Of a stretch of DNA of 43,313 nt, positions 7 to 42,928 are shown one piece after another (positions within the stretch are counted from its first letter, which is position 1; each line of letters starts with the position of its first letter). Location of the stretch: UHGV virus genome UHGV-0213395, one strand, 5' to 3'. This DNA comes from a virus. The notes under the pieces were generated by a model. That model did not search any database and was not told where the DNA came from. It worked only from the letters and a program-made list of their open reading frames with translations. The position numbers and the translations under genes are program-made.

Positions 7-1137
7 ATGGCCCGGAAGAAAATAACCGACGAACAGTTACAGGAAGAATTGAACGCCGGTATGAAGAATATCGACATCGCCCGTAAATACGGCATCTCAG
101 ACCGAGTTATTCGTATCCGTAAAGCGAAGCTGGCTAAGAAAGGTGTAGGCCACGGGCGCGACGTCAGCCACCTTGTGCCAGATGGCTACAAGATTAAAGG
201 GACGTCGTCTCTGGTAGACGAGTTCGGCAATACTAAGTTGCAATGGGTTAAGACAGACACCGACGCTGAACGTCAGGTCGAGTTGATGAAAGCCGTGATT
301 GAAGGCATGAAGTCAGAGATTACGCCAGTTGCGCCGGCTAAAGCGACTCGAGCCAAACGCGACGACAAGCTACTCAATCTTTACACGGTATCTGATTTCC
401 ATCTCGGTATGCTTGCCTGGGCCGACGAGAGCGGCGACGACTGGGATATAAAGATTGCGGAAGACCTGTTCTCTCGTTGGTTCGACGCGGCGTTTCAGAA
501 AGCACCGGATGCAGGAACAGGAGTTATTAACCTGCTGGGTGATTTCGCGCACTTCGATAGTCTGGATGCCGTTACACCTGAGTCGCGTCACGTGTTGGAC
601 GCAGACACTCGCTACCAGAAACTCGTCCGCTACATGATTCGTATGGTACGCCGTGTTGTAGATATGGCACTGGTTAAACATAAAAATGTTCGCTTGCTTA
701 TCGTACAGGGGAACCATGACCCTGTAGGCTCTGTATGGCTGGCTGAAATGTTCACAGTTTTATATTCGAACGACAGCCGAGTGATTGTCGATACGTCGCC
801 GGATGTTTACAAGATGGTGCAACACGGAAAAACGACGTTGTTCTTTCACCACGGGCATAAGGCGCGATTCGATGCTATCGAACCGGTTATGATTGCCAAA
901 TTCCGCAAAGCGTTCGGTGAGAGTGTCTATAGCTACGCCCACGTAGGCCACCTGCACCACCAGAAGATTGTAGAAAGCCGTAACATGATTGTTGAGCAAC
1001 ACCGCACCTTAGCGGCTAAAGACGCCTATGCCTCCCGCGGCGGGTGGATGTCAGGCCGTAGTGCAAATGTAATTACTTATAGCGCCGAATATGGCGAGGT
1101 CGCACGTTTAACTATTTCACCGGAGATGCTGGGATGA
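7..1137 (+). CDS. HTH domain fused to calcineurin-like metallophosphoesterase (376 aa)
   Basis: ATG at 7 preceded by GAGGA at window end 43309-43313. N-terminal basic HTH-like segment (ARKYGISDRVIRIRKAKL); phosphoesterase motifs DFH, GDFAHFD, GNHD, HHGH, GHLHH. Antisense to flanking tail genes. Confidence 0.7.
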   Translation: MARKKITDEQLQEELNAGMKNIDIARKYGISDRVIRIRKAKLAKKGVGHGRDVSHLVPDGYKIKGTSSLVDEFGNTKLQWVKTDTDAERQVELMKAVIEGMKSEITPVAPAKATRAKRDDKLLNLYTVSDFHLGMLAWADESGDDWDIKIAEDLFSRWFDAAFQKAPDAGTGVINLLGDFAHFDSLDAVTPESRHVLDADTRYQKLVRYMIRMVRRVVDMALVKHKNVRLLIVQGNHDPVGSVWLAEMFTVLYSNDSRVIVDTSPDVYKMVQHGKTTLFFHHGHKARFDAIEPVMIAKFRKAFGESVYSYAHVGHLHHQKIVESRNMIVEQHRTLAAKDAYASRGGWMSGRSANVITYSAEYGEVARLTISPEMLG

Positions 1138-8361: not shown

Positions 8362-8680
8362 GTTTCCCCTTTCTCGATAAGTAAAGCCCCGCCATAAAGC
8401 GGGGCGCTAGTCCTTATCATTTAAACATAGAAACGGCGTAATCTCAGTAAACCAGTTACTTTTTACACAAGCAATAGAGTATGGCCCTTCCGAACGCGTC
8501 AGCGTAACTACACTCAGGACTTACGTCCCGCTCCGTTACCTGCCCGCGCCGCGGTCGCTTGTTCATACTTCACAAGCTCAGGTGGAGCTTATCATATTTT
8601 TAGTGAAAAGTCAACTATTCGAATAGTTTATTCCAACATTTACAATTCGGAGGAATAACTGGAATACGTAAATAAATAGT

Positions 8681-8709
8681 TTGCACACCCCAATATAATA
8701 GGGTACTAT
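8681..8709 (+). promoter_or_regulatory. sigma70-type promoter TTGCAC-N17-TACTAT (conserved early promoter, copy 1)
   Basis: Near-identical ~33 bp to copies at 42872-42900 (+), 20239-20267 (-) and 19065-19093 (-); AGGAGG SD and ATG at 8737 downstream. Confidence 0.55.
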
Positions 8710-8736
8710 TCAGTTAACTTAAACAGGAGGTGAAAA

Positions 8737-8940
8737 ATGTATGCAATTTGCGAAGTAGTTCAAGAGTTCGATGAAGAGTTCGACGGTGACTTGTGCCGGG
8801 TTAAAAAGGTTCTGCAGGTTTTCCCTGACGCAATGTCTGCTTACAAGGCATTAGATATATTTGAACCTGGAAGATACGGGGATTATGACACTGTTCTGAG
8901 GGTTGTCCATGAGCAGGATTTAAACACAAGATTCCGTTGA
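8737..8940 (+). CDS. small acidic protein (67 aa), moron-like antisense gene
   Basis: Own promoter and AGGAGG SD; terminator at 8946-8966; antisense to head operon; lower GC than flanks. Confidence 0.6.
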   Translation: MYAICEVVQEFDEEFDGDLCRVKKVLQVFPDAMSAYKALDIFEPGRYGDYDTVLRVVHEQDLNTRFR

Positions 8941-9431: not shown

Positions 9432-10507
9432 TATTCCCCTTTCAGATAATCAGCAACACGTTTATCGAGTTCCGCCATCTGCTTAAGCGTGAGCGGATTC
9501 CCGAAACCATCTACAGATATTACGCGAAACTCTTCCGGCGATATACCGCTGTTACGGAAAATCTTACCTCGCACCGGGCCGAGCGCCTGGTCCTGAAACC
9601 ACGCCGGTTGTTGTTTAAGGAACTCGTAGTAAGTGGTGTCTGCGCTTACCTGAGTGCCACCTTCCGCGCCTTTAGCCGCGCGTTTTGCGCCTTTATCGAG
9701 GAAGTCGAACTCGGAACTGATTACCGGAGCCGTGCACGACCGGCAGTTCGGATGGGCTGGGGGCATCGGCCCCTTACCAATTTCCCACGTCATCCCGTCT
9801 CTGACCCTGCAAATTGTACTGGTGCGGCTGTCAAGCGTTGACACCCACTCGTACTTCTCGATGATGTCGTCGTTCTGGCGGTACGTCTCGTTACGGGCCT
9901 CGTTGGATACGTGGGACAGCGCGGTGCGGATTACCGTAGTCGCGTTACGTTCTGAGATGTCGGCTAGTCCACCAGCGCCAACAACATTCTTAACAATCTG
10001 CCGTGTGGTTTGACCTTGCACAAAGCCCATCTTAACTCCAGTTACAAGACGTGCTACTTCCGTTTCGCCCCATCCAGACATCAGCTTGGTGAAATCAACG
10101 GGCTTGTCGCTCAATGATAATGGTTGAAACTCGGCAGCGGCCCATACCTGCTCAGCGGTAGGCGTAACAAATTCCGCGTTTACGTTGGCGGTCAGTGTCT
10201 TTACGTTCCACTCCGCCTCATACGCCGCCAGTTCCTTAAGGTCTTCTGTCAGCTTTGTTTGCCAGTCACCCGTAAGCCCCGTCAGAGCTTCTTCAAGGTC
10301 ACGTAACAGTTTATTCAGCCGTGCGGTGCTGCGGCCGTCGTCGCCGAATAGCAGCACCTGCCGTTTGATTTCGTCCCGCATTTCCTGAATGAATGGTGCG
10401 AGGTCTTTTACTTCACCGGATGCGGCGCGTTGCAGCCAAATCTGGTGGCTGATTAGTGATGTCAGTAAGCTCATAGATAAACCCTGTGGCGCTAAAGTTA
10501 ATAGCAT
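9431..10507 (-). CDS. head morphogenesis (minor head) protein candidate (358 aa)
   Basis: Gene directly after portal, the usual place for SPP1 gp7/Mu F-type proteins. Positional call. Confidence 0.55.
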   Translation of the reverse strand: MLLTLAPQGLSMSLLTSLISHQIWLQRAASGEVKDLAPFIQEMRDEIKRQVLLFGDDGRSTARLNKLLRDLEEALTGLTGDWQTKLTEDLKELAAYEAEWNVKTLTANVNAEFVTPTAEQVWAAAEFQPLSLSDKPVDFTKLMSGWGETEVARLVTGVKMGFVQGQTTRQIVKNVVGAGGLADISERNATTVIRTALSHVSNEARNETYRQNDDIIEKYEWVSTLDSRTSTICRVRDGMTWEIGKGPMPPAHPNCRSCTAPVISSEFDFLDKGAKRAAKGAEGGTQVSADTTYYEFLKQQPAWFQDQALGPVRGKIFRNSGISPEEFRVISVDGFGNPLTLKQMAELDKRVADYLKGE

Positions 10508-13938: not shown

Positions 13939-14091
13939 TTCTGTTATATCGCCGCCGTCTACCAGTGCGATTGGTATTCTCACTTCACCGTTGAATGTTT
14001 CGGCATACCAGAACTTTTCACACTGCGTTACGCTGAAAACATCGAGTTCTGACGTAGCCCCTGTTTTCCAGTAGATAGTTAACTTTTTCAT
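13939..14091 (-). CDS. small hypothetical protein (50 aa)
   Basis: ATGA overlap with upstream gene; MKKLTIYWKTGATSELDVFSVTQCEKFW...; last ORF before terminator. Confidence 0.3.
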
Positions 14092-14348
14092 TCTCCACTC
14101 TCCTCTTTAGCAATACGTTGCTCAGTTTTAGTGATACCACGGCGCGTGAATAACACCGGGCTAGTCTTAACGTGCGTCATCAGACGATTGTTATAAATTA
14201 CGTGGCGCTCACAATCAACGTCTTTACTGTACTTAGCAATCGTCATTTCGTTGATACCGGTTTGTCGGCATGTCTCCGCCATCGTACCAAATTCTTTAAT
14301 CAGGTTAGGAATGCTGGTAATCATCCTAAGAAATTCCTCGTTGTCCAC
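14088..14348 (-). CDS. putative HTH DNA-binding protein (86 aa)
   Basis: HTH-like segment MAETCRQTGINEMTIAKY; last sizeable gene of the early unit, just upstream of the terminase genes. Confidence 0.5.
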   Translation of the reverse strand: MDNEEFLRMITSIPNLIKEFGTMAETCRQTGINEMTIAKYSKDVDCERHVIYNNRLMTHVKTSPVLFTRRGITKTEQRIAKEESGE

Positions 14349-15851: not shown

Positions 15852-15880
15852 AATATAATAGGGTCGTAGGTAATAGTCAA
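15852..15880 (-). promoter_or_regulatory. promoter TTGACT-N17-TATATT on minus strand
   Basis: Located between the strong terminator at 15902-15934 and the ATG at 15818; contains CCCTATTAT half-site related to the operator motif. Confidence 0.4.
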
Positions 15881-15901
15881 CTAGTCATTGCAGAAAATAG
15901 A

Positions 15902-18621: not shown

Positions 18622-18900
18622 TTATTCAACAGCGCCTGTTATTGCTATAAGCCCCGTGTTACCGCGGCGGCGATACTTACGAATCACCGTTTTAAGCTCT
18701 TCGTGACTACTCTGATGCCCGAAAGTGATCGGCAACTCTTCGCCGCCAGACATCCCGAACTCAGTGTCTGTAGGTTTGTTCCGCCACCCCTGAATAAACC
18801 CGAAACGGTCACGAGTTATATACCTGTAGTTGTTAGGGAGGGGCAACTCCAGCCCCTCAAAATCAATGGTCACGGTGTAGCTTCTAAAATTCATAGTCAA
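18622..18900 (-). CDS. hypothetical early protein (92 aa)
   Basis: Intact ORF (TTG start in track; ATG at 18894 also possible). Confidence 0.5.
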   Translation of the reverse strand: MTMNFRSYTVTIDFEGLELPLPNNYRYITRDRFGFIQGWRNKPTDTEFGMSGGEELPITFGHQSSHEELKTVIRKYRRRGNTGLIAITGAVE

Positions 18901-19033
18901 TTACCCCGAACTCATTGATGATTTGAGCCTTGTAGAAGTTGCCGTTCGAGGCCAGGCGGTACGCCTGCGCCATAGTCATCTCGCGATAAGTTGCGGCGCT
19001 GTTTTCGAATTCCATAATCATCAAAGTAACCAT
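18884..19033 (-). CDS. small hypothetical protein (49 aa), first gene after promoter copy 3
   Basis: ATG at 19033 with GAGAGGAGAGA SD; directly downstream of conserved promoter 19065-19093. Confidence 0.4.
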   Translation of the reverse strand: MVTLMIMEFENSAATYREMTMAQAYRLASNGNFYKAQIINEFGVIDYEF

Positions 19034-19064
19034 ATTCTGTCTCTCCTCTCGTTTGTGTAAATGA

Positions 19065-19093
19065 ATAGTAGCCTATTCTATATTAGTGTGCAA
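19065..19093 (-). promoter_or_regulatory. conserved early promoter, copy 3 (TTGCAC-N17-TACTAT, minus strand)
   Basis: rc reads CTTGCACACTAATATAGAATAGGCTACTATTCA; same architecture as the other copies. Confidence 0.5.
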
Positions 19094-19170
19094 GTAAATT
19101 TTATTGGTGTTTGTATTGTTGCGTCTCCTGCAATAGTCGCTTCGATTGTTGCGTTTGGTGAAATAGAACA

Positions 19171-19786: not shown

Positions 19787-20016
19787 CCTCCCTCAGAGTC
19801 GTTGGCACGAGCATCATGATTCGATGCCGTTGTGTATATTTCCGCTTCGGCCTTAGTTACTGGCACTTTGTTGCGTCCAACCTTAATCCACCAACCGCCT
19901 GATACAGTACCAAGCACATCAAAAACGTCACCTATATTTACGCCTATTCTTTCCAGAGTATTGTCGCCACCTTTTTCGTAGGCAACTGTGTTATCCGTAA
20001 TTATGATTTGCATCAC
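19777..20016 (-). CDS. small protein, member of tandem paralog pair (79 aa)
   Basis: MMQIIITDNTVAY...IGVNIGDVFDV; shared pattern with downstream neighbour. Confidence 0.5.
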   Translation of the reverse strand: MMQIIITDNTVAYEKGGDNTLERIGVNIGDVFDVLGTVSGGWWIKVGRNKVPVTKAEAEIYTTASNHDARANDSEGGCR

Positions 20017-20204
20017 TTCGCCCCTTTGAATTTAAAATTGTTGCCGATGAGTTCTAAATTATCGCGTGAGGCGAACCCAGTTTTCTTTCTTACCAGACCC
20101 CATACGTCAACCAGATTATCCTCGTCATACTCGCTCTCGTCCTGCAACACTAATACATATTGCCCTCCGCGTTTAGTTTTAACCAACTGACCCTTCTTAA
20201 ACAT
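20013..20204 (-). CDS. first gene of leftward early operon (63 aa)
   Basis: Start moved to ATG at 20204; purine-rich SD; directly downstream of promoter copy 4. Confidence 0.5.
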   Translation of the reverse strand: MFKKGQLVKTKRGGQYVLVLQDESEYDEDNLVDVWGLVRKKTGFASRDNLELIGNNFKFKGAK

Positions 20205-20238
20205 AACCCTCACTCCTCTGTCTCGTTTCGATAAGTGA

Positions 20239-20267
20239 ATAGTATCCTATTATGTTGGGGTGTGCAA
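20239..20267 (-). promoter_or_regulatory. conserved early promoter, copy 4 (TTGCAC-N17-TACTAT, minus strand)
   Basis: rc reads CTTGCACACCCCAACATAATAGGATACTATTCA, differing at about 2 positions from the plus-strand copies. Confidence 0.55.
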
Positions 20268-20626
20268 GAGAATAGTTACGTTGCCGTTGTGATTCTTTCG
20301 AAACTGTTGTGCCTTTATTCTTATTACTTGGTAACTAAAGGGCAGGCCCTAAGCCTGCCCAATAATCGTTACATTTTTACGGTTGCGAATCTACGGCACA
20401 TTAAGAAACAGTAGATATTTCAGCGGGTTACTTCTTTAAATGAGATTTAGATACACTTATCCTTAAACCACAAGGCAAGCATCTCAGCTGTCTGGGAGGG
20501 GTTGACGAATCCCTCGGGGAGGGTTCGTCAACTCCGTAATATATACAAGTCCCAAAACCATTATACAAACATGTGTCAAGAACTTTCAATAACTTTTTTG
20601 TAAAGATTAAATATTGCAGGGATTGG

Positions 20627-20686: not shown

Positions 20687-20869
20687 ATGCAACATTACAT
20701 GACACAGAATGAGGTAGCCGAGCGTATCGGGGTGACACGTCAGACCATTAATAACTGGTTGCGCAGCGGCAAATTCCCTGACTGCTGTATTAAGGTTATG
20801 GGCCGCCGTTTACCGGGAACATTTGACCGTAATAAAGTCGAAGCATGGATTAAGGAGAACGTGAAATGA
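20687..20869 (+). CDS. small HTH DNA-binding protein (AlpA/MerR-type, 60 aa)
   Basis: MTQNEVAERIGVTRQTINNWLRSGKFP HTH signature; start moved to ATG 20687; first gene of rightward operon. Confidence 0.6.
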   Translation: MQHYMTQNEVAERIGVTRQTINNWLRSGKFPDCCIKVMGRRLPGTFDRNKVEAWIKENVK

Positions 20870-23585: not shown

Positions 23586-23594
23586 GTAAAAAGA

Positions 23595-23613
23595 AAGGGG
23601 CTTTAAGCCCCTT
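23595..23613 (-). terminator. terminator hairpin at end of XRE regulator gene
   Basis: AAGGGGC-TTTAA-GCCCCTT; U-run on the minus strand; the regulator stop codon lies in the loop. Confidence 0.5.
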
Positions 23614-23818
23614 CACCTAACGCCAGCCACTTGGCGTCTACTTCCAGAACTTCCGCCAGTTTGAACAGCGTTGCCGGGCGGACGTCCTGAGTTACTCCAA
23701 GTGCCAGTTGGTTAATCGCGCCCTGGGAAACGCCGGTCAGGGCCGCCAAACGGCGCTGGGAGATGCCGAGTTCTTTGCGGCGTTGTTCTACACGGATGCC
23801 TAGTTCAGATGGTTGCAT
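23603..23818 (-). CDS. Cro/CI-type (XRE family) HTH transcriptional regulator (71 aa)
   Basis: GISQRRLAALTGVSQGAINQLALG HTH_XRE signature; AAGGAG SD; antisense and monocistronic within the replication module. Confidence 0.75.
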   Translation of the reverse strand: MQPSELGIRVEQRRKELGISQRRLAALTGVSQGAINQLALGVTQDVRPATLFKLAEVLEVDAKWLALGEGA

Positions 23819-23882
23819 GTCAATTACTCCTTAGTCAGTTGATATGTGAATAGTACCATATTAATTATTTTAGAAAAGCCCA

Positions 23883-23911
23883 TTGACATGTGAATAGTTC
23901 GCTATTATAGT
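23883..23911 (+). promoter_or_regulatory. promoter TTGACA-N17-TATAGT with AATAG-N4-CTATT operator-like palindrome in the spacer
   Basis: Consensus -35, 17-nt spacer, good -10; near-identical architecture at 26566-26594; drives the gene at 23943. Confidence 0.55.
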
Positions 23912-23942: not shown

Positions 23943-24443
23943 ATGTTAGAACAATTCTTAAAATTACTGGAACGTTTCGTAGTTGCACATGAACTGATTG
24001 CTGCGAACAGTGCGAAACAGTCAGCACAAGTTGCAGCGCCGTTAGAAGTAGAGACGGTAGTGTATACCAAAGAAGCGGTAGCTGAGTGCGAAAAAGAAGC
24101 AACAAAAGAAATCCCTGTTGAAGGTGAAGACATCGTTGACGCTAAACCAGCAGAAGAAGAGAAGCCGAAACGCAAGCCGCGTAAAGCTAAAGTAGAGGAG
24201 CCGACTCCAGAACCAGAAGAAGAGAAAGAAGAGGTCGATTACCAGTCTCTTCGTGACCAGATTCAGGCTATCGACGATGCAATTAACGAAGGTCCTAGCG
24301 ATGCTGCGTGCGACGATTCCGATGAACTGCTGGAGGAGTTCACCGGTAAGAAAATGAAGATTGCCGCGATTAAAGACGAAGACCTGGCTGAATACCTGAA
24401 ACGCCTGACGGCGATTAAGAACAAGTATTTCGAAGAAGAATAA
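23943..24443 (+). CDS. highly acidic low-complexity protein (166 aa)
   Basis: GAGAGGAGAG SD; Glu/Asp/Lys-rich central region; terminator at 24452-24470. Confidence 0.6.
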   Translation: MLEQFLKLLERFVVAHELIAANSAKQSAQVAAPLEVETVVYTKEAVAECEKEATKEIPVEGEDIVDAKPAEEEKPKRKPRKAKVEEPTPEPEEEKEEVDYQSLRDQIQAIDDAINEGPSDAACDDSDELLEEFTGKKMKIAAIKDEDLAEYLKRLTAIKNKYFEEE

Positions 24444-26380: not shown

Positions 26381-26580
26381 TTCAAGTAAATGAAATGCCC
26401 ACAGATAAAGATTTTGTGATGATATGGCGCTGGGGCGGTTATATCCATTCGGAATCGTTTACGTTCCTGAACGGCACGATGGTGCGATACAACCATGTGG
26501 AGGATGAATTCGAACCCGTTGATATGAATGATTTCGAGAACATAGTCCGTATTGCGAAATTTTATTTGACACCTGAATAG
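26377..26580 (+). CDS. hypothetical protein (67 aa)
   Basis: ATGA overlap with nuclease stop; the GAGGAGGA SD lies inside the nuclease C-terminal codons. Confidence 0.5.
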   Translation: MIQVNEMPTDKDFVMIWRWGGYIHSESFTFLNGTMVRYNHVEDEFEPVDMNDFENIVRIAKFYLTPE

Positions 26581-26594
26581 TTAGCTATTATAGT
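26566..26594 (+). promoter_or_regulatory. promoter TTGACA-N17-TATAGT with operator-like palindrome (second copy)
   Basis: TTGACACCTGAATAGTTAGCTATTATAGT; drives the SSB-like gene at 26648. Confidence 0.5.
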
Positions 26595-26647
26595 TCTAAT
26601 CACTGGCCGGGCAGCTCCCGGAGTAAACTTAAAAGCGAGAAATCAAG

Positions 26648-30022: not shown

Positions 30023-30351
30023 CTAAAGAGGGCCGCATCCAGAAATACGCAAAAGAGCGATTCGAGGCCATTGGTGGCCTCGTTCGTAAACTTTCCTACG
30101 AAGGACGTTCAGGCGCTCCTGACCTGCTGGCAATTCTACCCGGCGGCATCGTCTGGTTCGTCGAGGTGAAGAAAGACGAAAACACTAAGCCAGACCCGCA
30201 CCAGCTACGGGAACACGAGCGTATACGTAAACGTGGCGCAAATGTTTTTGTCGTTGGTTCGATAAAACAGATTGACACCCTAATAGCAGACTATTATAGT
30301 AAGCACATACCCCAACAATATAAGGAATTTAGAAATGAAACACGAATATGA
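30019..30351 (+). CDS. VRR-NUC domain nuclease (110 aa)
   Basis: PDLLAI ... VEVKK PD-(D/E)XK core in a ~100 aa protein. Confidence 0.65.
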   Translation: MTKEGRIQKYAKERFEAIGGLVRKLSYEGRSGAPDLLAILPGGIVWFVEVKKDENTKPDPHQLREHERIRKRGANVFVVGSIKQIDTLIADYYSKHIPQQYKEFRNETRI

Positions 30352-34841: not shown

Positions 34842-37409
34842 TTAATTAAAACCATTGCTGAATCCGTCGGAGAAACCGCTGCCGTATGGCGCGACGCCGT
34901 CGTATTTATAGAATCCGTCATCATAGTTGTAGCCCGTAATCTTGACCGTGCGGTCGTCGCCGGGGTCGATTGAAGAAACAACTATCTTCTGAGCATTATG
35001 CCTTGCTTCGTTGCCGAATGAAAACTCAGTTTTTAGCGCACTATTCCCCGTGTAGATTGCCTCCTCCGGCGCGGAGAGCATAATCACTTCGCGGTCGTGG
35101 CTTCCTTTGATAACAGAAATACTCTGCACAGAGCCGTCGCGCTTCTTAAGAATGATGGAATGGTCATCACCAGGAGTAAACGTAACCGGCTGCGACAGCG
35201 TAAGCGTAAGCCCATTAACGGCGACAACATAACCATCCTGCGGCGCGATGCGGGAGCCTTTAACCACGCTGATTACGCCGCCGGGAGTAGCTAGAGCGCC
35301 TTCTTCGGTAGCTTCGAACTCTACGACAACTTTACTTAACGCATTGCGCTGGTAGCGACGCCACGCCAGCCAGTACGCTTGCTGATAGTTACGTACACCC
35401 TTCGATTCGTACTCCTCGGTGTTCGCGCCGAGTTCTTCCGGGATATAAATCGTCTCCTGTACGTTTGTATCCGGGTCAATGTACGAGAACGACAGGCTAT
35501 CGTAGGTTGTCGAATCGTTGAACGTGCGCGTCCATTTCTCCGTACCGGTCGTTTTGCTGCGGTGGGTGAAAACCATCTCAGGCCCCGCAACAGGACGGTC
35601 GAATCGCAGCATAATATCAGCACCTTTACGGTATGCCGTACAAAACACGGCTTCCGCGATGGTCTGAACGATGTCTTGCATGGTTGTGTCGTAGTCGTCG
35701 AATGTGTAGCAGAACTGCCCGGCTAATTCACTGTCAAAATACGACTCAATTTCTTCCTGCACGGCAAGTAACTTGTCCATATTTGCCGTTGTCAGTTCCA
35801 GATTACCCACCACAGGGTCACGCGCCAGCCTGATTAGCGACTGCACGGCCTGAGTGTTCGGTGTCATTACCGTATCGAATACGCCGTTACCTAAGTATTT
35901 GTAGCACATCTCGGTAGCAATCATGCGCAGTTCCGGTTCTGACACCTCCGCGGCACGTGGCGTTTGTTTACGAGCGCAGTGTACGGTGGTTCTGTTGCCG
36001 TAGTGTGGGGTTGTGTCCAGAGACTGCCCGTACAGATTAGTGAAAGTAACCTCATCACTAACAGTACCTTCAAAATCTTTATCGGTGTCGGAAACACGAC
36101 GCATACGGGCGCGGAATCTGGAAGCAGTTGGTAAACTTCCGTAAAGAGTAATACCTGTGTAATCCGTGTTCCGGCCTGTTACGGTTCCTTGTACAGTAAA
36201 TATATCACCTACAGGCTGTTTCAGCTCATCAACCATCTGGTATTGCAGTTCCACTGTCACTGAAGCGCGGTTATAGTCGCCGTTGTATTTATACATGCCG
36301 TTGCTGGCGGCGACATTGGCTACAACACGGTCGACAGTACCGCGGGTGATGTACGCCCATTCAGAGAGAGAAGCCGCGTAAGTGTCCGCCGGGCCTATAA
36401 GATGGTTACCCTCTTCACCTATAAACCACACAGACGCCCCTAGCTGGTTCCATACTGATTGATTTGTACTGACGTCCACAATAAGGGTGGTTTCACTAAC
36501 CGAAAGAACCGTGTACCTCCCGTCCAGGTTAACCTCATTACCCAAAGACCCTGGGGTTGTATCTGCATATACGTTATCGAAGTATGCCAGGTCCCCGACC
36601 GCCAAAAACTCATCGAAACCAGCGTCATCGCCTACTACAACGCCGGTTGTTCCCTGCCGCTGGACAGTGTAGTCCTGCACGTCTATAGCGATATCATTAG
36701 GGGCGGGAAGAACAGCGCCATCGACATCGGCGTTTTTAAATGTAACGTACAATTTCTGGTCTATAGGGTCGCCGATATGCAATTGTGGTGTGCTGGTGTT
36801 ATTCGGCGAAGTGTAAGGAGAATACACCGTCACCGACGAGCCAGTTATCTCGCTGATTCGGGTATCTGCCTCAGTTACACCGTCTTCCTCAATATGCAGA
36901 TACCCTCGACCGGCGTCATAGTACGCATATTCAATAAGCGCACCCGCGGCATTAAACACCTTATATGTCTGCATCAGGTCATTGGGGATGGTCTGCACTG
37001 TCCCGCAGATATCATAGGAACGCTCATAAGGTCGTGGCTTGTTTGAGCGGTCGGTGAGACTGTTGTTAGGCGACGTAGCCTGATTGTTGGTAGCGGAATA
37101 ATTAGCGTTAGCCGCTGTGTTTAGCCCGAACAATTTGGCGATTGGCTTAAGGATGAAACTGAATACACTCCCGATGGCGTCGCCAATGCCGCCGCCAGCG
37201 CCCTCAATAATGTGGTACACGGCGTCCTCGTCTTTGAGCGCGTCGAAGTCGTCTGTAACATCAGTATCATCACCAATCTCGCCAAGATAGACGCGTACCG
37301 GAACGCCGTCCGGGATACGGTTAACGACAAACTCCATCGGCATCCCGACGTGTTTTGTACGGTTGAAAGCGCCATCAGCGTTTCGCGTGTAGTGCAGGAT
37401 TATCGCCAA
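34842..37409 (-). CDS. central tail fibre / host specificity protein (lambda J-like, 855 aa)
   Basis: Large tail-tip gene following the K-like peptidase gene; lambda-type order. Confidence 0.6.
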   Translation of the reverse strand: MAIILHYTRNADGAFNRTKHVGMPMEFVVNRIPDGVPVRVYLGEIGDDTDVTDDFDALKDEDAVYHIIEGAGGGIGDAIGSVFSFILKPIAKLFGLNTAANANYSATNNQATSPNNSLTDRSNKPRPYERSYDICGTVQTIPNDLMQTYKVFNAAGALIEYAYYDAGRGYLHIEEDGVTEADTRISEITGSSVTVYSPYTSPNNTSTPQLHIGDPIDQKLYVTFKNADVDGAVLPAPNDIAIDVQDYTVQRQGTTGVVVGDDAGFDEFLAVGDLAYFDNVYADTTPGSLGNEVNLDGRYTVLSVSETTLIVDVSTNQSVWNQLGASVWFIGEEGNHLIGPADTYAASLSEWAYITRGTVDRVVANVAASNGMYKYNGDYNRASVTVELQYQMVDELKQPVGDIFTVQGTVTGRNTDYTGITLYGSLPTASRFRARMRRVSDTDKDFEGTVSDEVTFTNLYGQSLDTTPHYGNRTTVHCARKQTPRAAEVSEPELRMIATEMCYKYLGNGVFDTVMTPNTQAVQSLIRLARDPVVGNLELTTANMDKLLAVQEEIESYFDSELAGQFCYTFDDYDTTMQDIVQTIAEAVFCTAYRKGADIMLRFDRPVAGPEMVFTHRSKTTGTEKWTRTFNDSTTYDSLSFSYIDPDTNVQETIYIPEELGANTEEYESKGVRNYQQAYWLAWRRYQRNALSKVVVEFEATEEGALATPGGVISVVKGSRIAPQDGYVVAVNGLTLTLSQPVTFTPGDDHSIILKKRDGSVQSISVIKGSHDREVIMLSAPEEAIYTGNSALKTEFSFGNEARHNAQKIVVSSIDPGDDRTVKITGYNYDDGFYKYDGVAPYGSGFSDGFSNGFN

Positions 37410-42871: not shown

Positions 42872-42900
42872 TTGCACACCCCAATATAATAGGGTACTAT
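42872..42900 (+). promoter_or_regulatory. conserved early promoter, copy 2 (TTGCAC-N17-TACTAT)
   Basis: Identical over ~33 bp to the copy at 8681-8709; GAGG SD and ATG 42929 downstream. Confidence 0.55.
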
Positions 42901-42928
42901 TCACATGTAACTTACTGAGGAAATAATT

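What the first reader, a model, noticed from the sequence alone, without database searches (positions are those of the whole stretch)
23846..23911. Operator-like palindrome AATAG-N4-CTATT at seven or more promoters, including both sides of the Cro-like gene
The inverted repeat occurs at 8697-8710, 42888-42901, 19066-19079, 20240-20253, 23849-23862, 23893-23906 and 26577-26590, plus a related perfect palindrome at 8613-8628. It overlaps the -10 in the TTGCAC-type promoters and sits in the spacer of the two TTGACA-N17-TATAGT promoters. Two copies lie in the divergent region between the XRE regulator gene and the acidic-protein gene. This looks like a regulon controlled by a single dimeric DNA-binding protein.
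Basis: seen in the sequence. Interest (0 to 1): 0.7.

Follow-up and report, generated by a model that had tools for sequence, protein, structure and literature searches.

The report
Cro-like operator on phage promoters
A 14-bp palindrome (AATAG-N4-CTATT) lies on the core of almost every strong host-type promoter of this lytic Kagunavirus coliphage and is most likely the binding site of the phage's own 71-residue 434-Cro-like repressor; this is an ordinary kind of circuit, and published genome papers have mislabelled the motif as a "phage RNA polymerase promoter".

Summary
AATAG-N4-CTATT occurs 7 times exactly, against 0.03 expected, and is by far the most over-represented 5-N-5 palindrome in the window. 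The window is a Kagunavirus genome (Guernseyvirinae), 99.6% identical to Escherichia phage Bas72 over the 10 kb compared, at about 51% GC, so it is not AT-rich.

Every exact copy lies 26-58 bp upstream of a start codon, inside a sigma-70-type promoter with a 17-bp spacer. It takes three registers and either orientation: over the -10, across the spacer into the -10, or (one-mismatch copies) over the -35.

The half-sites are kept at orthologous promoters in all Kagunavirus and Jerseyvirus loci examined, while the central 4 bp vary. A third Salmonella-phage lineage (St162) lacks the motif and instead carries an enriched TATTA-N6-TAATA palindrome at analogous promoters.

The best candidate reader is the 71-aa XRE protein (23603-23818, minus strand). 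Its closest solved relative is 434 Cro, whose operators have the same 14-bp layout, and two sites sit in its own divergent promoter region. The AlpA-like HTH_17 protein is less likely: its recognition helix has three alleles with no change in the motif. No binding or transcription data exist.

Published papers list these sequences as "phage RNAP promoters", but no RNAP gene is present. Verdict: a new member of a known kind, of moderate interest.

The parts
23893..23906 (.). Exact operator AATAGTTCGCTATT, in the spacer of the class B promoter and overlapping its -10 by 1 bp. It lies in the XRE / gene-23943 divergent region.
23883..23911 (+). Class B promoter TTGACA-N17-TATAGT (11/12 match to consensus), driving gene 23943-24443 and the replication arm.
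23849..23862 (.). One-mismatch operator AATAGTACCATATT. On the minus strand its half-site GTACTATT supplies a TACTAT -10 (23850-23855) 30 bp upstream of the XRE start codon. Alternatively it lies at about +1 of the minus-strand promoter TTCACA-16-TAAAAT (23894..23867).
23603..23818 (-). XRE / Cro-C1-type HTH gene (71 aa). This is the proposed operator-binding repressor.
23594..23614 (-). Intrinsic-terminator-like hairpin directly after the XRE stop codon, making XRE a stand-alone antisense cassette.
26576..26589 (.). Exact operator AATAGTTAGCTATT inside class B promoter 26566-26594 (+), upstream of the ssDNA-binding protein gene 26648.
30282..30295 (.). Exact operator AATAGCAGACTATT inside class B promoter 30272-30300 (+), upstream of gene 30335 and the methyltransferase and helicase genes.
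8697..8710 (.). Exact operator AATAGGGTACTATT over the -10 of class A promoter TTGCAC(8681-8686)-N17-TACTAT(8704-8709) (+). The promoter drives the opposite-strand insert gene 8737-8940.
42888..42901 (.). Exact operator shared by two opposed promoters: class A on the plus strand, TTGCAC(42872-42877)-N17-TACTAT(42895-42900), towards 42929 and the metallophosphoesterase operon; and a class B-like promoter on the minus strand, GTTACA(42911-42906)-N17-TATATT(42888-42883), towards the tail genes.
19064..19077 (.). Exact operator over the -10 of the minus-strand class A promoter TTGCAC(19093-19088)-N17-TACTAT(19070-19065), upstream of gene 18884-19033.
20238..20251 (.). Exact operator over the -10 of the minus-strand class A promoter TTGCAC(20267-20262)-N17-TACTAT(20244-20239). 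This is the first promoter of the leftward arm (gene 20013-20204).
15872..15885 (.). One-mismatch operator (minus-strand reading ACTAG-TTGA-CTATT) over the -35 of the minus-strand class C promoter TTGACT(15880-15875)-N17-TATATT(15857-15852), downstream of the lysis genes. The imperfect half-site is conserved in every Kagunavirus locus that covers this promoter. Jersey-type loci carry the mirror-image variant.
8606..8619 (.). One-mismatch operator (minus-strand reading AATAG-TTGA-CTTTT) over the -35 of minus-strand promoter TTGACT(8614-8609)-N17-TAAGCT(8591-8586). It overlaps the perfect palindrome at 8613-8628.
20687..20869 (+). AlpA-like HTH_17 gene (56-60 aa). This is the rival candidate reader; its own putative promoter carries no operator.

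Best explanation
The palindrome is the operator of a phage-encoded transcription regulator, most probably a dimer of the 71-residue XRE protein, which resembles 434 Cro.

Proposed sequence of events:
1. On infection, host sigma-70 RNA polymerase fires the phage's strong promoters. These are three near-consensus TTGACA-N17-TATAGT promoters of the replication arm, and TTGCAC-N17-TACTAT promoters of the leftward early arm and of two opposite-strand inserts.
2. XRE is made from its own small antisense cassette.
3. As XRE accumulates it binds the 14-bp sites, which cover the -10, the spacer/-10 junction or the -35. This occludes RNA polymerase and turns these promoters down.
4. XRE also turns down its own promoter region, which carries one perfect and one imperfect site 43-45 bp apart.
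5. Promoters with conserved imperfect operators (class C, ahead of late genes) would be repressed least. That could give a graded early-to-late shift without any phage RNA polymerase, sigma factor or antiterminator.

What is shown: the sites, their positions, their conservation and their lineage specificity; and the family and predicted fold of XRE.
What is inferred: that XRE is the binder, that it binds as a dimer, that the effect is repression, and the temporal logic.
For: Enrichment. The motif has 7 exact copies against 0.03 expected and is the top palindrome in the window.

Position. All exact sites lie 26-58 bp upstream of start codons, inside sigma-70-like promoters with 17-bp spacers. 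The three class B promoters are three of the only four 11/12 consensus matches in the window.

Register. The -10 hexamer starts at palindrome position 8 (class A), 11 (Jersey site 16957) or 14 (class B). In class C the -35 hexamer lies inside the palindrome. The element is also used in the opposite orientation in class A and class B.

Conservation. The motif is present in all Kagunavirus and Jerseyvirus loci examined and absent, even at one mismatch, from nearly all loci whose XRE homologue is 45% identical or less; the only matches there are single one-mismatch hits at chance level in L003 and L034. Orthologous promoters keep the half-sites and vary the central 4 bp.

Lineage specificity. St162 has no such motif. 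It has TATTA-N6-TAATA at 8 sites against 1.0 expected, at analogous promoters. That palindrome is not enriched in the window. St162 has an XRE homologue but no AlpA-like gene.

The XRE protein. It matches Pfam HTH_3 at 49.7 bits against a cutoff of 23. Its best PDB sequence hits are 434 Cro (also 71 aa), the 434 repressor N-terminal domain and P22 C2. The AlphaFold2 model has five helices, and its top Foldseek hit is 434 Cro (2cro; TM 0.70/0.75, 40% identity). The HTH is invariant across variants sharing 77-100% identity.

The rival protein. The AlpA-like recognition helix has three alleles within Kagunavirus (TRQTINN, TRRTLNN, S[TP]MTLNR) while the motif is unchanged. The flanking base (G/T in Kagunavirus, T only in Jersey) follows the XRE type, not the AlpA allele.

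Distribution. The exact class B element is confined to Guernseyvirinae among 2.9 million viral contigs, apart from 19 isolated single hits.
Against: - There are no binding or transcript data for any Guernseyvirinae phage.
- The AlpA-like gene co-occurs perfectly with the motif: both are present in Kagunavirus and Jerseyvirus and both absent in St162. Co-occurrence alone therefore cannot exclude it.
- XRE is only 48% identical between Kagunavirus and Jersey. Its recognition helix differs (SQGAINQ against SQSLITH) although the core operator is the same. Jersey and St162 have similar helices (SQSLITH, TQSAISH) but different palindromes.
- Kagunavirus operators are systematically asymmetric in the flank (GAATAG...CTATTA), which is unexpected for a simple homodimer.
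- The site in XRE's own promoter is only a good half-site plus a degenerate half.
- The comparisons are not phylogenetically independent, and the site logos were built from exact matches.
Confidence: 0.6

Rival explanations
1. The same operator is read by the 56-60-aa AlpA-like HTH_17 protein (20687-20869) rather than by XRE. This protein would be made from an operator-free promoter at the start of the rightward arm.
For: The gene co-occurs exactly with the motif: it is present in 443 Kagunavirus and Jerseyvirus records and absent from the St162-type phages that lack the motif. It is about 80% identical between Kagunavirus and Jersey, matching the conserved core motif. It matches HTH_17 at 35.1 bits against a cutoff of 27.
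Against: Within Kagunavirus it has three recognition-helix alleles (R-to-T/P, Q-to-M and N-to-R changes) with an identical motif and flank. Jersey's allele (TRRTLNN) is shared with some Kagunaviruses whose operator flank nevertheless differs from Jersey's. Small HTH_17/excisionase-type proteins lack a dimerisation module and classically bind direct repeats (from knowledge). St162's analogous palindromes would need a different reader.
Confidence: 0.12
2. The element is an intrinsic, duplicated promoter module read only by host RNA polymerase. Its symmetry would come from -10-like sequences (TACTAT, TATAGT, TATAAT) on both strands and from bidirectional promoters. No dedicated regulator would be involved.
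For: Each half-site contributes to a -10-like hexamer. At 42888 the palindrome serves promoters on both strands, and 20238 and 23849 have weaker opposite-strand matches. Class A and class B sites share extended flanks (TGAATAGT...CTATTATA), as expected from module duplication.
Against: In class B the AATAG half lies in the spacer, where sigma-70 makes no base-specific contacts, yet it is kept across genera. The register relative to the -10 and -35 shifts among classes. Most sites have no credible opposite-strand promoter. A lineage infecting the same host uses a different palindrome.
Confidence: 0.1
3. Another phage protein reads the motif. Candidates are the NinH-like protein (14088-14324, minus strand), the HTH-like N-terminus of the 376-aa metallophosphoesterase (7-1137), or an unrecognised small early protein.
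For: There is a weak Phage_NinH match (E = 5.5e-5, below the cutoff) and weak GerE/HTH signals in the metallophosphoesterase N-terminus. Many small early proteins have no family assignment.
Against: The NinH-like protein is 64% identical to Jersey's and 69% to St162's. The metallophosphoesterase is 85% and 76% identical respectively, and its HTH-like segment is more alike between Jersey and St162 than between Jersey and Kagunavirus. Neither follows the motif change. Neither gene is adjacent to paired sites.
Confidence: 0.08
4. The motif is a promoter for a phage-encoded RNA polymerase. This is how PHIRE-based genome papers label it.
For: The fBC-Eco01 paper lists seven such sequences as 'Phage RNAP promoter' with consensus tgAATAGTa-ccTATTat-T. 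The Golestan paper reports seven PHIRE promoters.
Against: No RNA polymerase or sigma gene appears in the Bas72 annotation or in my Pfam scans, and all large ORFs have other assigned functions. The element is palindromic, is used in both orientations, and is embedded in canonical sigma-70 -35/-10 pairs.
Confidence: 0.01
5. The motif is a binding site for a host transcription factor or nucleoid protein that the phage has recruited.
For: No direct evidence. AT-rich palindromes can attract host factors (from knowledge).
Against: The motif follows phage lineage, not host. Jersey and St162 both infect Salmonella but carry different palindromes, while Jersey shares its palindrome with the E. coli Kagunaviruses.
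Confidence: 0.04

Closest known systems
Phage 434 Cro / 434 repressor and their 14-bp operators (ACAA-N6-TTGT)
   Same: The protein has the same length (71 aa). 434 Cro is among the best PDB sequence hits (E about 1e-5) and is the top structural hit (TM 0.70-0.75, 40% identity). The operator is a 14-bp palindrome with conserved outer bases and a variable centre, and it overlaps core promoter elements in a divergent control region (434 operator layout from knowledge).
   Different: The half-site sequence differs (AATAG against ACAA). No CI partner, integrase or lysogeny module is present. Sites are dispersed at ten or more promoters round a strictly lytic genome, rather than forming two tripartite operators. 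Binding is untested.
Dispersed-operator phage regulons (P1 C1 operators; mycobacteriophage L5 gp71 'stoperators')
   Same: One small repressor would have many copies of one short site scattered over the genome at or near promoters (from knowledge).
   Different: Those sites are asymmetric and belong to temperate-phage immunity repressors. Here the site is palindromic and the phage is lytic.
Restriction-modification controller (C) proteins and C-boxes
   Same: They share the small XRE fold: C.AhdI and C.BclI are among the fold hits. They are autoregulatory, and their palindromic sites overlap a promoter (from knowledge).
   Different: C proteins control one operon and both activate and repress it. 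Here many promoters carry the site, and there is no sign of activation geometry.
'Phage-specific promoters' reported for Kagunaviruses fBC-Eco01 and Golestan (PHIRE)
   Same: These are the same sequences: PP1-PP7 of fBC-Eco01 Table S2 are the homologues of the window sites.
   Different: Those papers call them promoters for a phage RNA polymerase, which these genomes do not encode. They did not note the dyad symmetry, the overlap with sigma-70 hexamers or the link to the XRE gene.
Pseudomonas aeruginosa AlpA antiterminator and its AlpA-binding element in the promoter spacer
   Same: A regulator-binding element lies between the -35 and the -10, and the phage protein carries the annotation 'AlpA-like'.
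   Different: P. aeruginosa AlpA is a Q-like protein whose DNA-contact residues lie at positions 128-142. It forms a ring in the RNA exit channel, and its element is the 6-bp sequence GGGACG. The phage protein is a bare HTH_17 of 56-60 aa. The resemblance is in name only.

Membership tests
Cro/C1-type HTH (Pfam HTH_3), 434-Cro-like | HTH_3 domain above the Pfam gathering score | tested here: met
   49.7 bits against a cutoff of 23, E = 3.9e-13.
Cro/C1-type HTH (Pfam HTH_3), 434-Cro-like | Five-helix 434-Cro/repressor fold | tested here: met
   The AlphaFold2 model (pLDDT 77) has helices at 5-17, 21-28, 32-39, 48-57 and 62-66. Its top Foldseek PDB hit is 2cro, with 1pra, 3cro and P22 C2 also high. 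Sequence hits to 434 Cro and repressor have E about 1e-5.
Cro/C1-type HTH (Pfam HTH_3), 434-Cro-like | Palindromic operator of about 14-18 bp with conserved outer half-sites and an uncontacted, variable centre | tested here: met
   AATAG-N4-CTATT has invariant halves, and the N4 centre takes more than 15 different sequences across loci.
Cro/C1-type HTH (Pfam HTH_3), 434-Cro-like | The protein binds the operator as a dimer | not testable with these tools
   This needs EMSA, footprinting, or protein-DNA complex modelling.
Cro/C1-type HTH (Pfam HTH_3), 434-Cro-like | Operators in the regulator's own promoter region (autoregulation) | tested here: inconclusive
   There is one exact site and one one-mismatch site in the 124-bp XRE / gene-23943 intergenic region. 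The XRE-proximal site is a good half-site plus a degenerate half in both genera.
Lambdoid immunity switch (Cro + CI + lysogeny) | A partner CI repressor and an integration module | tested here: not met
   No CI, integrase or second XRE appears in the Bas72 annotation or in my scans. The group is described as strictly lytic.
Phage-RNAP-specific promoter (literature label) | The genome encodes its own RNA polymerase | tested here: not met
   No RNAP or sigma gene was found. All ORFs over 600 aa are the DNA polymerase, primase-helicase, tape measure, tail protein or tailspike.
Phage-RNAP-specific promoter (literature label) | An asymmetric, unidirectional element at a fixed distance from the transcription start | tested here: not met
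   The element is palindromic, is used in both orientations and in three registers, and always lies within sigma-70 -35/-10 pairs.
Q/AlpA-type antiterminator loading site | A Q-like protein able to form an RNA-exit-channel ring | tested here: not met
   The AlpA-like protein here is a bare HTH_17 of 56-60 aa. P. aeruginosa AlpA is far larger, with DNA-contact residues at positions 128-142.
MerR-type spacer-binding activator | An over-long (19-20 bp) spacer and a coiled-coil dimerisation helix | tested here: not met
   All motif-bearing promoters have 17-bp spacers. The HTH_17 protein is too short to carry the coiled coil.

The most novel reading that the evidence does not exclude
A strictly lytic siphovirus subfamily may run its whole transcription programme on host sigma-70 polymerase plus one 71-aa Cro-like protein. 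Nearly every strong promoter would carry the same operator. Temporal order would be encoded by operator quality: perfect sites at early, replication and opposite-strand promoters, and conserved one-mismatch ACTAG half-sites at late promoters. Helically phased paired sites (43-45 bp apart in Kagunavirus against 55 bp in Jersey) would also contribute. Operator and regulator would co-diverge between lineages (AATAG-N4-CTATT against TATTA-N6-TAATA).
Probability: 0.3. Interest if true: 0.55.

Novelty: new member of a known kind. Interest (0 to 1): 0.4.

Why it matters
Kagunaviruses (BASEL phages Bas70-76, and CM001) are becoming model phages and engineering chassis, yet nothing is known about how their transcription is controlled. 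Published genome papers label this element a promoter for a polymerase the phages do not encode.

Reading it as a Cro-type operator has three practical consequences:
- It gives a simple circuit that can be tested with one protein and about ten sites.
- It corrects the existing annotation.
- It identifies promoters and a repressor that could be reused, or that must be avoided, when payloads are inserted.

Conceptually it is a familiar mechanism in a lytic setting, not a new principle.

Tried and rejected
- Phage-RNAP promoter (the literature label): rejected, because no RNAP or sigma gene is present.
- P. aeruginosa AlpA/Q-like antitermination, with the element in the spacer: considered because of the name and the position, then rejected on protein size and architecture.
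- MerR-like spacer activation: rejected, because the spacers are 17 bp.
- Bidirectional -10 symmetry as the source of the palindrome: it holds at 42888 and weakly at 20238 and 23849, but not at the other sites.
- CRP-like TGTGA reading of the flank: there is no second half-site.
- RNA hairpin reading: the element lies upstream of the predicted transcription starts, and a 5-bp stem is too weak.
- SS3e (L050) looked like a natural XRE replacement, but it is a one-base frameshift, probably a sequencing error, so it is uninformative.
- Co-occurrence analysis over 64 IMG/VR loci could not separate XRE from the AlpA-like protein, because no lineage has the motif with only one of them.
- The large protein search returned only close XRE relatives (77-97% identity), all in Kagunavirus-like contigs.
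- Rfam and tRNA scans of the window found nothing.
- Literature searches found no transcriptome or regulator study of Guernseyvirinae.

Full report
**What the window is.** The 10 kb around the finding is 99.6% identical to Escherichia phage NicoleGrasset_Bas72. Hundreds of Kagunavirus and Jerseyvirus (Guernseyvirinae) genomes also match it. The whole window aligns to the reverse complement of the Bas72 record.

The genome has two divergent arms:
- A rightward arm (about 20.7-32.7 kb, plus strand) carries the AlpA-like gene, primase-helicase, replication and recombination genes, a methyltransferase and a helicase.
- A long leftward arm (minus strand) carries small early genes, lysis genes, terminase, head and tail genes.
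- Three small units run against the flow: XRE (23603-23818, minus), gene 8737-8940 (plus), and the 42929-to-1364 metallophosphoesterase operon (plus).

**Anatomy.** Every exact copy lies 26-58 bp upstream of a start codon. Each is embedded in a sigma-70-type promoter with a 17-bp spacer.
- *Class B* (23883, 26566, 30272; plus strand): TTGACA-N17-TATAGT. These are three of the only four 11/12 consensus matches in the window. The palindrome occupies spacer positions 5-17 and its last T is the first base of the -10.
- *Class A* (8681 and 42872 on plus; 19093 and 20267 on minus): TTGCAC-N17-TACTAT. The -10 lies inside the right half of the palindrome. The extended element (TGAATAGT...CTATTATA) is in the opposite orientation from class B.
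- *Class C* (15880 and 8614 on minus): TTGACT-N17-TATATT or TAAGCT. A one-mismatch palindrome spans the -35 (ACTAG-TTGA-CTATT; AATAG-TTGA-CTTTT).
- At 42888 the same palindrome serves a class A promoter on one strand and a class B-like promoter (GTTACA-N17-TATATT) on the other.

The element therefore slides relative to the polymerase contact hexamers and flips orientation. An operator would behave this way. A sigma contact would not.

**Comparative evidence.** In Salmonella phage Jersey the palindrome sits at the orthologous promoters, with 4 exact copies plus one-mismatch copies. The centres differ and there is yet another register, TTGCAT-N17-TATTAT.

Across 64 IMG/VR loci recovered with an XRE alignment, plus three Logan contigs:
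- Every Kagunavirus or Jerseyvirus locus has 2-6 exact copies.
- No locus whose XRE homologue is 45% identical or less has an exact copy. Only L003 and L034 have a single one-mismatch match each, which is chance level.
- Alignments of orthologous upstream regions show the half-sites retained while N4 and the flanks vary.
- The class C site keeps exactly one weakened half (ACTAG) in both genera, but on opposite halves. That suggests selection for an imperfect site.
- The two sites next to XRE are 43-45 bp apart in Kagunavirus and 55 bp apart in Jersey, a difference of one helical turn.

St162, which represents a third Salmonella-phage lineage, has no AATAG-N4-CTATT. It has TATTA-N6-TAATA at 8 sites against 1.0 expected, at analogous promoters. 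That pattern is not enriched in the window.

Because Jersey and St162 share a host but not a motif, a host factor is unlikely and a phage-encoded reader is likely. The exact class B element is essentially confined to Guernseyvirinae among 2.9 million viral contigs: 51 of 70 stretches carry marker genes of the subfamily, and the rest are isolated single hits.

**Who reads it?** Only three proteins show HTH signals: XRE (HTH_3), the AlpA-like protein (HTH_17), and a sub-threshold NinH-like protein. There is also a weak signal at the N-terminus of the metallophosphoesterase.

XRE is favoured for these reasons:
- Its best solved sequence relatives are 434 Cro (also 71 aa), the 434 repressor N-terminal domain and P22 C2.
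- Its AlphaFold2 model (pLDDT 77) has five helices, and its top Foldseek hit is 434 Cro.
- 434 operators are 14-bp palindromes with conserved outer bases and a variable centre (from knowledge). That is the layout seen here.
- Its gene sits beside two sites in a divergent control region and ends in its own terminator.
- Its HTH is invariant over variants sharing 77-100% identity.
- It is the only candidate that is present in St162 and has also diverged strongly there (40% identity).

The AlpA-like protein co-occurs perfectly with the motif, so it cannot be excluded. However, its recognition helix exists in three alleles within Kagunavirus with no change in the motif. The flank base (G/T 50:50 in Kagunavirus, T only in Jersey) follows the XRE type, not the AlpA allele. 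The NinH-like protein and the metallophosphoesterase do not follow the motif change either.

There are caveats. The XRE recognition helices of Jersey and St162 resemble each other more than either resembles the Kagunavirus one, which does not map simply onto the operator differences. The Kagunavirus operator flank is systematically asymmetric. All these comparisons are phylogenetically correlated.

**Mechanism proposed.** XRE dimers would occlude the -10, spacer or -35 of the phage's sigma-70 promoters. That would damp early, replication and opposite-strand transcription as XRE accumulates. XRE would also autoregulate, and late-type promoters with imperfect sites would be least affected. Repression is inferred only from position. 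No activator geometry is seen, and the class B promoters are near-consensus, so they should not need activation.

**Relation to the literature.** The fBC-Eco01 paper found seven of these sequences with PHIRE. It listed them as "Phage RNAP promoter" with consensus tgAATAGTa-ccTATTat-T. The Golestan paper likewise reports seven PHIRE promoters. Neither genome, nor this one, encodes an RNA polymerase. I found no operator interpretation and no transcript or binding data for the subfamily. The P. aeruginosa AlpA antiterminator, whose binding element also lies in a promoter spacer, is a much larger Q-like protein, so the shared name is a coincidence.

**Verdict.** The finding is real and statistically overwhelming, and it is best explained as a dispersed Cro-type operator regulon. 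It is a new member of a known kind. Its value is mainly in correcting published annotations and in giving a tractable circuit in emerging model phages. Confidence that it is a phage-protein operator is about 0.8.

Noticed in passing
window 20335-20589, minus strand: An 11/12 sigma-70 match, TTGAAA-18-TATAAT (20589..20560), is one of only four in the window and corresponds to HP3 of the fBC-Eco01 paper. It points into a 219-nt stretch that folds unusually well (-68.4 kcal/mol, z = -3.8), with a strong hairpin at 20503-20534 and a terminator-like hairpin at 20360-20340. There is no Rfam hit. Bas72 annotates two tiny plus-strand ORFs here, one of which starts at a GTG inside the 20238 operator. 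This may be a non-coding RNA in the central control region.
   Followed up: partly
window 26600-26623 (5' UTR of gene 26648): A hairpin, CACTGGCCGGGCAGCTCCCGGAGT, lies between the class B promoter and the ssDNA-binding protein gene (Enc34 / gp2.5-like). It is conserved almost base for base in Kagunavirus, Jerseyvirus and even the St162-like loci, where the promoter itself has diverged. It could be a translational autoregulation site.
   Followed up: no
window 19115-19124 and 19145-19154: The direct repeat ATTGTTGCGT occurs twice, 30 bp apart, just upstream of the class A promoter at 19064 on the minus strand. Similar TTGTTGC strings occur at the same place in Jersey. It may be a site for a second regulator.
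   Followed up: no
window 23849-23906; L002 around 35812-35880: The two operators in the XRE control region are 43-45 bp apart in all Kagunavirus loci and 55 bp apart in all Jersey-type loci. The one-helical-turn difference keeps them on the same face of the DNA relative to each other.
   Followed up: partly
window 15872-15885; L002 42338-42351: The late-type promoter downstream of the lysis genes keeps one weakened half-site (ACTAG) in every locus. It is the left half in Kagunavirus and the right half in Jerseyvirus, as if an imperfect operator were being selected.
   Followed up: partly
window 7-1137 (plus strand), residues 1-50: The 376-aa metallophosphoesterase, annotated as a DNA repair exonuclease, has an N-terminal segment with weak HTH signals (GerE E = 0.0036, HTH_24 E = 0.034). 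Its operon is driven by the operator-bearing promoter at 42872.
   Followed up: partly
L003 (Salmonella phage St162) 13003, 13664, 16785, 26798, 33415 and other sites: St162-type phages carry their own enriched promoter palindrome, TATTA-N6-TAATA (8 sites at up to one mismatch against 1.0 expected), in the same 16-bp frame as TAATAG-N4-CTATTA. NCBI files St162 under Kagunavirus, although it lacks both the AlpA-like gene and the Kagunavirus motif.
   Followed up: partly
L050 (Salmonella phage SS3e) around 10000-10070: The XRE gene of SS3e carries a one-base insertion (GAAATCCGGCATGGG against GAAATCGGCATGGG) that frameshifts it. In this 2004-era sequence it is probably a sequencing error rather than a natural knockout.
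   Followed up: partly
L038, sites 932, 4256, 4873, 11780, 12262, 12875: A high-GC viral contig with a 44%-identical XRE homologue carries six copies of the palindrome GCACC-N-GGTGC (part of CGGCACCnGGTGCCG). I did not check whether these are terminators or another operator set.
   Followed up: no
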